DNA from: the human T2T-CHM13v2.0 reference genome, Homo sapiens
Direction: 5' to 3' (one strand)
NCBI RefSeq assembly: GCF_009914755.1
Contig: NC_060925.1
DNA: 64,000 nucleotides
Shown: one piece after another, positions 46,251 to 64,000 of the stretch
How positions within the stretch are numbered: the stretch's first letter is position 1
Layout of the letters: the number at the start of each line of letters is the position of its first letter
Notes under the pieces: model-generated
What the model saw: only the letters and a program-made list of their open reading frames with translations
The model's database searches: none
What the model was told of the DNA's origin: nothing
Made by a program: the position numbers and the translations under genes

Positions 46251-46990
46251 GAACTGCAGGGATACATTTACTTGTCAGCACCTGAAAACTTCCTCCTGAG
46301 TTGAGTCCAATTATCAGCTTCATGTGCCATCTGCCAATCCAGATGAAACTTGGCAAATACAAAGCTGTCCTTTTCCAGGTGACACTCCCCACCTTCTTTT
46401 TCCTCCACCATTTCATTAACAACTAAAAAGCTCCTGCATGATCAGACCTGTGTATCTATCCATCATCAAATCCCACTCCTTTTTCGAGACTGGGACCCTC
46501 TGGAGGCTGACCCAGCCACGCATTTGCTAGCATGCCCTGCAGACATGACCCTCGCTGGGCTCTGATCAGCCTTCAGGCCTCCACTCCAGGTGTCACTGTT
46601 CTGTCTCCCCTCTGCTCTCACAGCCTTCTCTGCTAGATGTCTCAGCCGTGCTGGCCCTCTCTATTTCAGAAGTGAATGTACTGAGAGGGTCTTAGGGACT
46701 TATTAATAATGCTCCTGGGGTCGGATGTAGTAGCTCATGCCTGTGATCCCAATACTTTGAGATCACTTGAGCCCAAGCGTTTGAGACCAGCCTGGGCAAC
46801 AAGGTGAGGCCCCATCTCTATCAAAAATTCAAAAAAGTAGCCAAGCATGGTGGTGCACGCCTGTGATCCCAGCTCCTCGGGAGACTGGGGTGGGAGGATG
46901 GCTTAAGCTCAGGTCAAGACTGAAGTGAGACATGAGGCCACCACTGCACTCCAGCCTGGGCAACAGAGCAGGACTCTGTCTCAAAAAAAA
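46251..46990 (+). repeat. Left arm of a local inverted duplication (non-Alu part 46251-46720 plus shared AluJ); may extend further left
   Basis: Manual alignment to the reverse complement of 63536-64000. Confidence 0.93.
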
Positions 46991-48499
46991 CAAAACCCAC
47001 TATAACCATAATACTATTATCACACTTAAGAAATTCATAATTCCTTAATATCATCACATATCCAATTGATATCTGAGTTCAATTATTTCATGTCAATGTT
47101 TTTAAACTATTTCAATCAGAATCTAAATGAGGTCAACACGTTGCAATTGGTTGGTATGTCTTTTAAACTCCTTTTAATCTACAGGTTTCTCTTTTTTTGC
47201 CTTGAGTTTCATTTATTAGAGAACCCAGACATTGTCCCATATAGTCTCCCAGAGTTGGATCTTGCTAGTTTCATCCCCACGGCCTAGTTTAACACATTCC
47301 TCTGTCCTTTCTATTTTCTTTTTTTTTTCTTGAGAGGGAGTCTCCGTCTGTCCCCCAGGCTGGAGTGCAGTGGCTCCGTCTCAGCTCACTGCAACCTCTG
47401 CCTCCCAGTTCGAGCGATTCCCCTGCCTCAGCCTCCTGAGTAGCTGGGATTACAGGCGCCTGCCACTACGCCCAGCTAATTTTTTTATATTTTTAGTAGA
47501 GACGGGGGTTTCACCATCCTGATCAGGCTGGTCTCGAACTCCCGACCTCAGGTGATGGACCCGCCTCTGCCTCACAGAGTGCAAGGATTACAGACGTGAG
47601 CCACCGCACCCGGCCAAATGTCCTTTCTATTTTCTATAAATTAACAGTCAGATCTAGGGGCTCGATCAGATTTGTGTGTGTGTGTGTGCCGTGTGCGCGT
47701 GCACAGCATGTTCTTTGACTAGGAGGCACACCTGCTTTGGTTATCTTCTTTTTGTAATCTTTAAGTTGCTCTTTGATGTAGACGTGGTAACTAATGTTGA
47801 AACAAAATTAGTTTCGTTTCAAAACCTTTCTTTCAGGAAGAGGTTGTGGTTGATTACTTCTGCGACAGGTAGATGCAAGGTTGAGCAATCATCTCTTAAC
47901 AGAAGTGGTCACACTAGAATAATTCAAGCACAACAACAAATCCCACATCATCACCCCCTCTTAATAATGGTGTTTTCTTTTTACTTGATTAGCTTTTAAT
48001 TGTCACGCACTCTGCATTTTTTCCCTGAGGTATTATTTCCAGAAGGCAGCGAAATATGACTCAATGGCTAATTTGCTTTTTAAAAATTAAACAAAACTTA
48101 GGCCAGCTGCCATTTAAGAAGGGCTCCGGGGCCTCCAGACTCGGTGTGACCGTAGCCGTGCCCGGTGCTCCCCTCGCGGAGGCGTTAGGGCGGCAGGTTT
48201 ATCTCACTTGAGACCATTCCTTCCTTTTTCATCTTCTCCGGGCTCCGGCGCAGCAGGCCGCAGGGGCGGGCACTCGCAAGAACGCGGCATCCTGGATGGT
48301 GGCCGAGTCACCGAAGCTCAGAACCCCGCGTCCCAGAATCGCTGAGAGCCGGCCCCGCACGGGGGCCTGGGAGCGCCACGCGCCCTCCACCCAGAGAGGC
48401 AGGCGGGCGGGCCGGGGGGGGCGGGGCCTCGGGACTCCGCCCACGCCTCCGTCTCCTCCGCGCTCCGCCACAGCCGGCCGACACCACACCAGCCGGGGA

Positions 48500-48517
48500 G
48501 CCGCCGCCGCCGCCGCC
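48500..48517 (+). repeat. (GCC)6 in the DEGS1 5'UTR
   Basis: gccgccgccgccgccgcc followed by acc. Confidence 0.9.
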
Positions 48518-61600: not shown

Positions 61601-62939
61601 TAGGTAAAAGTATTTTATGCTACAAATAATGGACATTCAATGAGAATCCTTACTTTTCACTGAGTCCTGTACCAAGTGTTTTACATGAACTATTGTACTT
61701 TTTTGTTGTTGTTCCTTTTTTTTTTTTTTTTTTTTTTTTGAGACAGAGTCTTGCTCTGTGGCCCAGGCTGGAGTGCAGTGTTGCAATCTCAGCTCACTGC
61801 AACCTCCGCCTCCCAGGGTCAAGCAATCCTCCCACATCAGCCTCCCAAGAAGCTGGGACTGACTACAGGTGTACACCACCACACCTAGCTAATTTTTGTA
61901 TTTTTTGTAGAGATGGGGTTTCGCTATGTTGCCCAGGCTGGTCTCAAACTCCTGAGCTCAAGTGATCCAACCACCTCGGCCTCCCAAAGTGCCGGGATTA
62001 CAGGTATGAACCACAATTTATTGTATTTAAGTCTCAACATTTATATGCTATAAGCAGTACTATTAATATCTTCATTTTGTAGATGACAGAAAAGGCTTAG
62101 AGAGATTAAGTAACTGGCCGAAGGTCACACTTAGTAAACTGCAGAAACTGAACCTGAAATGCAGACTCTGTGGACTCCAGACCCAAAAGCCTTAACCATA
62201 TTCCATTTGGCTTACATTATGAGCCTCGTCCTGAAACAGTAATGAGAATGAAAATCACATGTTCCTATTACTACATACATACTCTACTGCCTCATTAACC
62301 ATTTCCTGTATGCCAGCATTTTGGCTAGGTCTCTGTTTTTTTCCAACTCTTGAATCTAAAATTCAAATATGAAACATTAATGTTTAAATCCATGCAAAAA
62401 ATGCATTTATGTATTCATTTATTCATTCTACAGATGCTTTTGGCAGGCTTGCACTAGGCAGTGAGGATACAAAGACAAAATGTTGCCCCAAATTAAGGAG
62501 CTAATGCTCTAGTGCTGGGAGGTACATGTTAAGAAAGAAAGGACTTAAAACAGGAGAATTAGGATGTGGCTGGGACTGAGTAGAGGGCACACATTGCTAT
62601 CGCTGATCAGGGTGAGTGCTCTGCCAGGCTGTACGTGCAAATATTGTGCTAATCCACGGCAGCCTGGGAAGGTAGGTATTGTCTCCCACACTTTTCACAG
62701 GAAGAAACAGGGTTAGGCAAGTAACTAGCCTGAGGTCACACAACATGGGCCAGGGCCTGAAGCTATGTGTGTTAAAGCCAATGCTTTATGCTATTCCTCT
62801 TGGAAGCTCTTTGGACAAGTTCATGTATTTGTTAGGAAAATCTTCTAGAAGCCTTAGCCATTTGGAAGGAAGCAAGAACAGTTTGATGACCTAGGGCTAG
62901 GAAGGCTCTGAAAAACTGTGCCCTTGAAATCCAAGAACA

Positions 62940-64000
62940 TTATTATTATTATTATTATTATTTTGAAACAGGGTCTGGCTCTGTCACCCAGGCTGAAGTG
63001 CAGTGGTGGGATCATGTCTCACTGCAGCCTTAACCACCTAGGTTCAAGCAATCCTCCCATTTCAGCCTCGAGTAGCTGGGACCGCAGGCGTGCACCACCA
63101 TGCCTGGCTTTTTTTTTTTTTTTGAGATGGAGTCTGCTTCTATCACCTACGCTGGAGTGCAGTGGTGTGATCTCAGCTCACTGCAACCTCCACCTCCCGG
63201 GTTCAAGCGATTCTCCTGCCTCAGCCTTCCCAGTAGCTGGGATTACAGACACCTGCCACTATGCCCGGCTAATTTTTTTTTTAAATATTTTTAGTAGAGG
63301 TAGGGTTTCACCATGTTGGTCAGGCTGGTCTCGAACTCCTGACCTTATGATCCGCCTGCCTCAGCCTCCCAAAGTGCTGGGATTACAGATGTGAGCCACT
63401 GCACCCGGCCCCTATTTTTATTTTGTATAGGGACAGAGTCTCACTGTGTTCCCCAGGCTGGTCCTAAACTCCAGTGGTCCTCCTGTCTCGGCCTCCCAAA
63501 GTGTTGGGATCACAGGCGTTAGCCACTGCCTCCAGCCCCAGGAGCATCACTAATAAATCCCTAAGACCTGCTCAGTACATTGACTTCTGAGACAGAGGGC
63601 CAGCATGGCCGAGGCGCCTGGCAGAGGAGGCTCTGAGAGCAGAGGGGAGACAGAGCAGTGACACCTGGAGTGGAGGCCTGAAGGCTGATCAGAGCCCAGC
63701 GAGGGTCATGCCTGCAGGGCGTGCTAGCAAACGCAGGGCTGGGACAGCCTCAGGAGGGTCCCAGTGTTGAAAAAGGAGTAGGATTTGATGATGGATAGAT
63801 ACACAGGTCTGATCATGCAGGAGCTTTTCAGTTAATGAAACGGTGGAGGAAAAATAAGGTGGGGAGCGTCACCTGGAAATGAACAGCTTTGTATTTGCCA
63901 AGTTTCATCTGGATTGGCAGATGGCACATGAAGCTGATAATTGGACTCAACTCAGGAGGAAGGTTTCAGGTGCTGACAAGTAAATGCATCCCTGCAGTTC
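62940..64000 (-). repeat. Right arm of the inverted duplication (non-Alu part 63536-64000, cut by the window end; shared AluJ 62940-63537 interrupted by a younger AluS ~63110-63411)
   Basis: Reverse complement begins gaactgcagggatgcatttacttgtcagcacctgaaa, matching 46251 onward. Confidence 0.93.

What the first reader, a model, noticed from the sequence alone, without database searches (positions are those of the whole stretch)
46251..64000. DEGS1 sits inside an inverted duplication with an identity gradient: possible invertible ~17-kb cassette
Seen: 46251-46720 matches the reverse complement of 63536-64000. Manual counts from the outer end inward: 4 differences in 130 nt, 7 plus a 3-nt indel in 120, 9 in 120, about 16 plus an indel in 100. 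Both arms then run into an AluJ at the same position (shared gtgagacatga), which is more diverged, and only the right copy has a later AluS inside it. The match runs off the window end, so the arms are probably longer. Inference: an old duplication whose outer part has been homogenised by gene conversion or recurrent inversion. Recombination between the arms would flip the promoter and all three DEGS1 exons and cut them off from the candidate upstream exon at 41.0-41.2 kb, which lies outside the arms.
Basis: partly seen in the sequence, partly recalled or inferred. Interest (0 to 1): 0.72.

Follow-up and report, generated by a model that had tools for sequence, protein, structure and literature searches.

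The report
Old inverted mini-duplication flanking DEGS1
A stretch of about 0.9 kb sits in two mirror-image copies on either side of the human DEGS1 gene; it likely arose by an Alu-guided copying accident in an early primate and was likely partly re-copied later, and nothing found shows that the gene flips today, so it looks like an ordinary piece of genome history.

Summary
The arms are short: 514 aligned unique bases at 92% identity, ending 53 bases past the window, with two copies found in the genome. Each arm is bounded on both sides by old (AluJ-like) elements, about 0.9 kb in all. The 'gradient' is a step: 5.7% divergence over the 420-base core against 17% over the inner 94 bases and about 21% in the shared inner Alu; a 44-base patch of the outer Alu differs at one base. 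Target-site duplications flank the Alus only at the right arm (strong inside, weak outside), so the right arm is likely the parent, the left a copy, and the present orientation likely the original one. Best reading: an early-primate Alu-guided duplication, later partly homogenised by non-crossover gene conversion. The invertible-cassette idea is unsupported: longest identical run 80 bases, and no such inversion in two human catalogues or a human-macaque catalogue; ape tables could not be read. The 'upstream exon' lies inside a young ZNF706 retrocopy. Ordinary; interest low.

The parts
46198..46620 (+). Left arm, homogenised unique core
   Evidence: 24 mismatches in 420 columns against the right arm; 17 of 404 at non-CpG sites; longest identical run 46289-46368, 80 bases
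46621..46718 (+). Left arm, inner unique segment left at the old divergence; ends in a copy of the inner Alu's target site (46705-46718)
   Evidence: 16 mismatches in 94 columns; change-point p about 0.013; target-site match to the right arm's tail flank
46719..46995 (+). Left inner J-like Alu, likely copied with the arm; no nested element, no target-site duplication behind its tail
   Evidence: mutual nearest neighbour of the right inner Alu among 116 right monomers; ranks 12/1378 and 12/1653; own target-site score 7, reached by 49 of 113 unrelated tails
46084..46198 (-). Left outer Alu, left monomer, shared with the right arm; its last 44 columns (about 46084-46127) differ at 1 of 43 bases, the middle 47 columns at 13
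   Evidence: 8 shared rare variants, top of 7021 pairs; rank 1 of 1653; segment counts
45585..46083 (-). Rest of the left outer Alu: linker with a Y-like insertion (about 45782-46066) and a right monomer that shows no kinship with the right arm's; the outer junction lies in or at the end of this stretch
   Evidence: right monomers rank 1073 of 1378; the two nested Y-like elements rank 14 and 27 of 116 to each other
63633..64000 (-). Right arm, homogenised unique core. It runs on for 53 bases beyond the window (L003:1001-1053) and is followed by the right outer J-like Alu (L003 about 1055-1950), which holds Y-like and S-like insertions in its linker and has a 7-base target-site match behind its tail
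   Evidence: outer target-site score 9, reached by 9 of 113 unrelated tails: weak
63538..63632 (-). Right arm, inner unique segment with the 5' target site of the inner Alu (63538-63551)
62931..63537 (-). Right inner J-like Alu with an S-like Alu in its linker (63120-63410) and a target-site duplication behind its tail (62931-62944): likely the native insertion
   Evidence: left 5' flank vs this tail flank scores 19, reached by 0 of 113 unrelated tails; own 5' flank scores 13, reached by 4 of 113; classes
48483..58685 (+). DEGS1 with its CpG-island promoter, wholly between the arms
   Evidence: hub annotation; CpG observed/expected 0.88 at 48100-49350
40390..41153 (-).
   Evidence: four exon matches on one other contig at 89, 99, 97 and 98%; 13-base target-site duplication at 40379 and 41155

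Best explanation
Two inverted copies of a 0.9-kb Alu-bounded segment flank DEGS1; the right copy is likely the parent, the left likely an early-primate Alu-guided copy, and their central 420 bases were likely re-homogenised later by gene conversion without flipping the gene. Steps: (1) shown: a unique 0.5-kb segment lies between two divergently pointing J-like Alus, at both places. (2) inferred: DNA repair or a replication template switch, using Alu or poly(A) homology 17 kb away, copied the segment with the inner Alu and at least the left monomer of the outer Alu into the left site in reverse, leaving the target-site duplications behind. (3) inferred: this happened after the J wave and before the S-like insertion that only the right copy has (8-9% per lineage, against 10% for J-like and 6.5% for S-like elements of this region). 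(4) inferred: one patchy or two separate non-crossover conversion tracts reset the core and a 44-base Alu patch to about 2% per lineage, less than the Y-like elements here (3.7%), roughly 15-30 million years ago by general primate rates (my recall). (5) inferred: the arms have since decayed below efficient recombination length, and the locus is stable.
For: Two copies only (2 full hits in 293 kb at word size 7). Homology stops inside or at the tails of Alus at both ends. Inner target site: left 5' flank vs right tail flank scores 19, 0 of 113 unrelated tails reach it; the left tail has none. Two divergence layers: 17/404 vs 45/277 non-CpG (p 1e-7), inner unique segment and inner Alu alike (p 0.73), outer Alu 1/43 vs 13/47 (p 9e-4). 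Inner Alu shared: combined rank p about 7e-4. Internal clock. Tracts of 50 to several hundred bases are usual for interlocus conversion (PMC3924818, passages). No inversion in catalogues.
Against: No other primate sequence could be read, so age, direction and conversion are inferred from two human copies. The change-point was picked after seeing the data and in unique sequence alone has p about 0.013-0.018. The inner Alus differ at non-CpG sites about as much as unrelated J-like pairs (21/114 vs mean 19%; left monomers 11/75 vs 18%); kinship rests on shared rare states and shared CpG decay. In the inner 94 bases 11 of 14 weak/strong differences have G or C on the right arm (p 0.057), which could mean locally faster change instead of greater age. 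The outer target site is weak (9 of 113), so the orientation argument is weak on that side, and whether the outer junction lies in the linker or at the tail is unresolved.
Confidence: 0.66

Rival explanations
1. Invertible cassette: crossovers between the arms have flipped the 16-18 kb segment with DEGS1 repeatedly, and the exchange homogenised the core; a reversed allele exists in some humans or primates.
For: The arms are inverted, over 90% identical in the core, and the best inverted match among 398 alignments that straddle DEGS1 (80-base run vs at most 45). Validated human inversions have repeats from 140 bp upward (PMC13629690); Alu-mediated inversions use pairs of median 81.7% similarity (PMC9675761); short homology can work over a few kb (PMC2583991). 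Conversion implies that the arms once paired. An even number of flips would leave no trace in my tests.
Against: 80 identical bases is below the 134-232 bp (cell culture) and 300-500 bp (human meiosis) figures for efficient recombination. Both target-site flanks sit on one arm. No call between chr1 197.05 and 226.69 Mb in the T2T Strand-seq/assembly table of 44 samples; none at 224.0-224.2 Mb (hg38) among 612 candidates, drawn partly from studies of 195 individuals; only an 87-bp entry between 223.68 and 227.60 Mb among 1972 human-macaque inversions.
Confidence: 0.07
2. One younger duplication (about 4-6% divergence) with no later conversion; the inner 94 bases and the Alus only look older because of a local burst of substitutions (GC-biased conversion at an old hotspot, or error-prone synthesis) and because the Alus are chimeras of different elements.
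For: 11 of 14 weak/strong differences in the inner segment favour G/C on the right arm (p 0.057); both target-site differences private to the right 5' copy are A to G; inner Alus are about as far apart at non-CpG sites as unrelated J-like pairs.
Against: Needs a fourfold rate jump that happens to equal the divergence of the adjoining Alu (p 0.73 for a difference); both monomers of the inner Alu show kinship (combined p about 7e-4), which a junction near its 5' end would not give; the bias does not differ significantly from the core (Fisher p 0.27); the S-like insertion is missing from the left copy.
Confidence: 0.13
3. Old duplication whose core is kept similar by purifying selection on a regulatory element in both copies (for instance paired factor or CTCF sites that bracket DEGS1), not by conversion.
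For: The core is unique sequence 1.8-2.3 kb upstream of the DEGS1 start and about 5 kb behind the gene; 46546-46620 differs at 1 of 75 bases and holds a 2-mismatch match to a CTCF-like pattern (pattern recalled) at 46583-46596 and 63658-63671, in convergent orientation.
Against: The pattern matches 22 times in the window against 21.9 expected. A fourfold lower rate over 420 bases in both copies would be unusually strong constraint (inference), and selection does not explain the near-identical 44-base patch inside the outer Alu. No Rfam match and no notable reading frame (left arm only) in the arms.
Confidence: 0.09
4. The core is a decayed dispersed repeat, and the two copies are independent insertions.
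For: The genome search skips common words and scores only its best candidates, so weak relatives could be missed (tool text).
Against: 2 of 2 candidates in three searches; 92% identity with no third copy; identical Alu junctions at both ends and shared Alu variants. Even if the core began as an ancient repeat, the pair is still a local duplication.
Confidence: 0.03

Closest known systems
Alu-mediated rearrangements (TEMR/AAMR: duplications, inversions and complex events with junctions in Alus; PMC9675761, PMC13041450)
   Same: Both ends of the duplicated unit lie in or at the tails of Alus; the outer left Alu looks like a chimera of a copied left monomer and an unrelated right monomer; size near 1 kb like the published median for TEMR duplications (1,085 bp).
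   Different: Those are present-day variants with a known ancestral allele; this one is old and apparently fixed, dispersed by 17 kb and inverted rather than tandem, and uses J-like elements.
Interlocus (non-allelic) gene conversion between nearby paralogues (PMC3924818)
   Same: A patch of a few hundred bases with much higher identity than its flanks, between close copies.
   Different: Inferred from two sequences only; no outgroup tree; non-coding; the review warns that such patches need not equal single tracts.
Recurrent human inversions mediated by inverted repeats (PMC6748972, PMC13629690)
   Same: Inverted arms over 90% identical around a gene-sized segment.
   Different: The 24 NAHR inversions of PMC6748972 have repeats of 654 bp to 24.2 kb; the unique arm here is 514 bases with an 80-base identical run, and no second orientation was found in the tables read.
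Segmental duplication (1 kb or more, 90% or more identical)
   Same: Low-copy, intrachromosomal, contains non-repeat sequence.
   Different: Too short, and about 84% identical when the inner Alu is included, so it falls below the catalogues.

Membership tests
Alu-mediated rearrangement (TEMR/AAMR) | Both junctions lie within elements of the same class | tested here: met
   Homology ends in the outer Alu and at the tail of the inner Alu; flanks beyond are unrelated
Alu-mediated rearrangement (TEMR/AAMR) | Chimeric Alu at the junction | tested here: inconclusive
   Outer left monomers rank 1 of 1653, right monomers 1073 of 1378: fits a chimera, but also a whole old copy whose left monomer alone was converted later
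Alu-mediated rearrangement (TEMR/AAMR) | Derived copy lacks matching target-site duplications | tested here: met
   Left inner 7 (49 of 113 reach it), left outer 4 (102 of 113); right inner 13-19, right outer 9
Alu-mediated rearrangement (TEMR/AAMR) | Breakpoint microhomology against the ancestral allele | not testable with these tools
   No pre-duplication allele is available
Interlocus gene conversion | Tract of raised identity with a significant boundary | tested here: met
   Change-point at 46621, p about 0.013; 17/404 vs 45/277 and 1/43 vs 13/47
Interlocus gene conversion | Paralogues cluster within a species or clade in the tract but by arm outside it | not testable with these tools
   No relative of this genome is held
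Inverted-repeat-mediated (NAHR) inversion polymorphism | Inverted repeats over 90% identical at both ends | tested here: met
   474 of 514 columns identical
Inverted-repeat-mediated (NAHR) inversion polymorphism | Uninterrupted identity of efficient length (about 130-500 bp) | tested here: not met
   Longest run 80 bases against figures in PMC2583991, which also notes exceptions under 50 bp at short range
Inverted-repeat-mediated (NAHR) inversion polymorphism | Both orientations observed in individuals or species | tested here: not met
   Absent from three catalogues searched; ape and Strand-seq macaque tables could not be read
Segmental duplication | At least 1 kb at 90% identity or more | tested here: not met
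   514 unique columns at 92%; 84% over 671 columns with the inner Alu; definition as used in PMC13629690
Dispersed repeat family | Many copies genome-wide | tested here: not met
   2 matches; very old weak relatives are not excluded
Retroposed (L1-driven) duplicate | Target-site duplication around the whole left copy | tested here: not met
   The 16 bases behind the left inner tail have no other match within 2 mismatches in 93 kb

The most novel reading that the evidence does not exclude
The two arms are a still-usable hinge: they have flipped DEGS1 with its promoter in some primate lineage or do so rarely in humans, producing a copy-neutral allele that exome and array tests miss and that separates this leukodystrophy gene from upstream enhancers and from a first exon recruited out of a ZNF706 retrocopy.
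Probability: 0.07. Interest if true: 0.6.

Novelty: new member of a known kind. Interest (0 to 1): 0.2.

Why it matters
As best read, it is a tidy fossil: parent copy, direction, two ages and a conversion patch can be read from Alu target sites and variants, and it suggests that sub-kilobase inverted paralogues 17 kb apart can exchange sequence long after they form. Such pairs lie below segmental-duplication catalogues; another unique two-copy inverted pair (403 bases, 95%) lies 124 kb away, so they are not rare here. It would matter more only if a reversed allele exists, since DEGS1 causes a recessive leukodystrophy and Alu-flanked deletions there are already reported; even then promoter and all coding exons would flip together and the gene would probably still work.

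Tried and rejected
Longer arms beyond the window: rejected; nothing Alu-free past 64053 in 29 kb downstream or elsewhere in 93 kb or 293 kb. Smooth gradient: rejected in favour of one step. Shared Y-like insertion in the two outer Alus: rejected, ranks 14 and 27 of 116 and different sites. RNA gene or reading frame in the arms: none. CTCF-like sites: chance level. Partner target site for the left arm's Alu tails elsewhere in 93 kb: none in front of an Alu; one 13-base match at 48009-48021 is not at an Alu end and was taken as chance. A profile search for distant relatives of the core was not available, so a very old repeat origin of the core is untested. Literature: DEGS1+inversion (38 papers, 30 listed, none on a genomic inversion by title or abstract start), DEGS1+Alu+deletion (1 paper), DEGS1+FBXO28+NVL (3 papers, unrelated by title), conversion tract search (0 papers). 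Ape inversion tables of PMC12058530 were too large to read; the supplement of PMC7605249 could not be searched; either could hold a DEGS1 inversion.
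Full report
Observation. The strongest self-match of the window is 46251-46913 against the reverse of 63338-64000. Coordinates above 64000 below continue the window into locus L003. The unique part runs from 46198-46716 to 64053-63540: 40 mismatches in 514 columns, 10 of them at CpG sites. After masking Alus, no other homology links the flanks in 93 kb. 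The genome search returns two matches for the whole core and for each end of it; it warns that it skips common words and scores few candidates. In 293 kb at word size 7 there is no third copy.

Anatomy. At both places the unique segment lies between two J-like Alus that point away from it (the clustering puts the left outer left monomer with the S-like group, its partner and its right monomer with the J-like group). I aligned the monomers of the Alus found in 93 kb (119 left, 117 right) and then in 293 kb (278 and 287); hits shorter than 85 or 120 query bases were left out. The outer left monomers share 8 rare non-CpG variants, the most among 7021 pairs, and rank 1 of 1653 J-like pairs; their last 44 columns differ at 1 of 43 bases while the middle 47 differ at 13. 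The outer right monomers show no kinship (rank 1073 of 1378). The inner Alus start at the same base, are mutual nearest neighbours among 116 right monomers and rank 12 of 1378 and 12 of 1653 (combined p about 7e-4). Against this, their non-CpG distance (21/114 and 11/75) is close to that of unrelated J-like pairs (19% and 18%), so they parted early. Y-like insertions in the two outer linkers are independent; an S-like element sits only in the right inner linker. The duplicated unit is therefore about 0.9 kb, from the outer Alu's linker (or tail) to the inner Alu's tail.

Direction and orientation. The bases before the inner Alu recur behind its tail on the right arm only: the left 5' flank against the right tail flank scores 19, which 0 of 113 unrelated tails reach; the right 5' flank scores 13 (4 of 113); the left tail scores 7 (49 of 113). 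For the outer Alu the right arm has a 7-base match (9 of 113, weak) and the left none (102 of 113). As a control, 98 automatically paired full-length Alus score 2-34, a little over half at 13 or more, and mismatched pairs have a 95th percentile of 12. Inference: the right locus is the parent. A single crossover in the arms would put the inner and outer target-site flanks on different arms; both are on the right, which favours the original orientation, with the caveats that the outer match is weak and that an even number of flips leaves no mark.

Gradient. Divergence by block is 7.5, 1.7, 6.1, 16.7, 1.3 and 17.0% from outside in. A permutation test supports one change-point at 46621 (24/420 vs 16/94; p 0.013; non-CpG p 0.018) and no second (p 0.45). 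The inner 94 bases match the inner Alu in non-CpG divergence (13/88 vs 32/189, p 0.73), and together they differ from the core (45/277 vs 17/404, p 1e-7). On an internal clock, J-, S- and Y-like left monomers of this region lie 10, 6.5 and 3.7% from their own consensus at non-CpG sites (subfamily names are my recall applied to data-driven clusters). The old layer (16-18% per pair, 8-9% per lineage) falls between J and S, which fits the S-like insertion in one copy only; the core (4.2% per pair) is younger than the average Y-like element. In years, by recalled primate rates, that is roughly 45-60 and 15-30 million. One result against the two-layer reading: 11 of 14 weak/strong differences in the inner segment have G or C on the right arm (p 0.057; not different from the core, p 0.27).

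Mechanism. Most likely a repair or replication template switch, guided by Alu or poly(A) homology, copied the unit from right to left in reverse; a retroposed origin is less likely because the left copy has no flanking target-site duplication. Later the two copies likely paired once or twice and exchanged a few hundred bases without crossover. Experimental interlocus tracts mostly measure 50 to several hundred bases, and apparent patches need not be single events (PMC3924818, passages). All of this is inferred from two human copies; no other primate genome is held.

Invertibility. The arm pair is the best of 398 inverted alignments that straddle DEGS1 in the region examined (80-base run against at most 45), but several inverted Alu pairs reach 89-91% over 300 bases. 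Efficient recombination needs about 134-232 bp in cell culture and 300-500 bp in human meiosis, with exceptions under 50 bp at short range (PMC2583991, passages). NAHR inversions in PMC6748972 have repeats of 654 bp to 24.2 kb (passages), though validated ones start at 140 bp (PMC13629690, passages) and Alu pairs of median 81.7% similarity can mediate inversions (PMC9675761, passages). So an inversion is possible but not favoured. Catalogues: Table S1 of PMC10150506 (T2T coordinates, 44 sample columns; part 1 of 14 read and the file searched) has no chr1 row between 197.05 and 226.69 Mb. The 612 candidates of PMC13629690 hold nothing at chr1 224.0-224.2 Mb (supplement searches); this locus was therefore not genotyped there. 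Table S7 of PMC11092980 (1972 human-rhesus inversions from chain/net alignment; rows and methods passages) lists only an 87-bp entry between 223.68 and 227.60 Mb, so human and rhesus share the orientation as far as that table goes. The hg38 position of DEGS1 (about 224.18-224.19 Mb) is recalled. The ape tables of PMC12058530 (main-text passages only) and the supplement of PMC7605249 could not be read and may bear on this.

Known DEGS1 rearrangements. PMC12077970 (part 1 of 4 of the text and passages) reports a 63-kb whole-gene deletion and a 7-kb AluY-flanked deletion of exons 2-3, and its main text never uses the word inversion. PMC13041450 does not name DEGS1 in its main text. Searches for DEGS1 with inversion, with Alu and deletion, and with its neighbours found no description of these arms (listings only); most subscription papers are not searched.

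Upstream exon. 41.0-41.2 kb is the antisense 5' end of the ZNF706 processed pseudogene: four exon matches at 89, 99, 97 and 98%, a 13-base target-site duplication and a splice-donor match at 41189. PMC12077970 gives the gene as 4 exons and 17 kb, which fits a transcript starting near 41.0 kb (41000-58685 is 17.7 kb), and I recall such an Ensembl model; neither was checked. By identity the retrocopy is likely younger than the core's homogenisation, and the main promoter lies inside the arms, so a flip would remove at most a minor start.

Verdict. Real, accurately observed, and best explained as an old Alu-bounded inverted mini-duplication with later conversion (0.66). It works like known Alu-mediated duplications and interlocus conversion; it is not a segmental duplication by length and not a shown inversion polymorphism. 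A second unique two-copy inverted pair lies 124 kb upstream, so the class is not rare here. New member of a known kind; interest 0.2; invertible-cassette reading 0.07.

Noticed in passing
L017:2505-2907 and L017:3204-3618 (chr1:223,246,505-223,247,618, upstream of the window): A second unique two-copy inverted pair: 403 bases at 95% with a spacer of about 300 bases; 2 matches genome-wide. A better hairpin or small-inversion candidate than the DEGS1 arms.
   Followed up: partly
chr1:223,260,681-223,261,693 (L018) and chr1:223,464,459-223,465,884 (L029): Two more close inverted pairs (246 bases at 90%, with a distant relative at 79%; 146 bases at 91%), possibly repeats homogenised by proximity.
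   Followed up: partly
window about 60557-60644 (from a recalled hg38 offset): An 87-bp human-macaque inversion entry (chr1_inv125, hg38 224,195,314-224,195,401) in PMC11092980 Table S7, between DEGS1 and the right arm, with no status in other primates; no clear flanking inverted repeat.
   Followed up: partly
window 40381, 41157, 41207, 41410, 41712: The same 11-base target site recurs five times: the ZNF706 retrocopy and successive Alus appear to have inserted into one site.
   Followed up: no
window 40952-41190: The ZNF706 retrocopy keeps a CpG-rich 5' end (observed/expected 0.76) and has a consensus splice donor at 41189 on the DEGS1 strand: a possible young antisense promoter exon for DEGS1.
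   Followed up: partly
L003 about 1083-1129: The middle of the right outer Alu's left monomer resembles right monomers (score 60 vs 36) while the left copy resembles left monomers (70 vs 48): a probable small Alu-to-Alu conversion patch.
   Followed up: partly
window 46583-46596 and 63658-63671: A 2-mismatch CTCF-like match (pattern recalled), convergent across DEGS1, inside the best-kept 75 bases of the arms; window-wide count is at chance level.
   Followed up: partly
whole region: Alus cover about 32% of 293 kb and 398 inverted alignments straddle DEGS1; reported DEGS1 deletions include an AluY-flanked one.
   Followed up: no
window 44884-45010: SNORA72 copy confirmed by Rfam (91 bits, full model), outside any host intron in the hub's table.
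   Followed up: no
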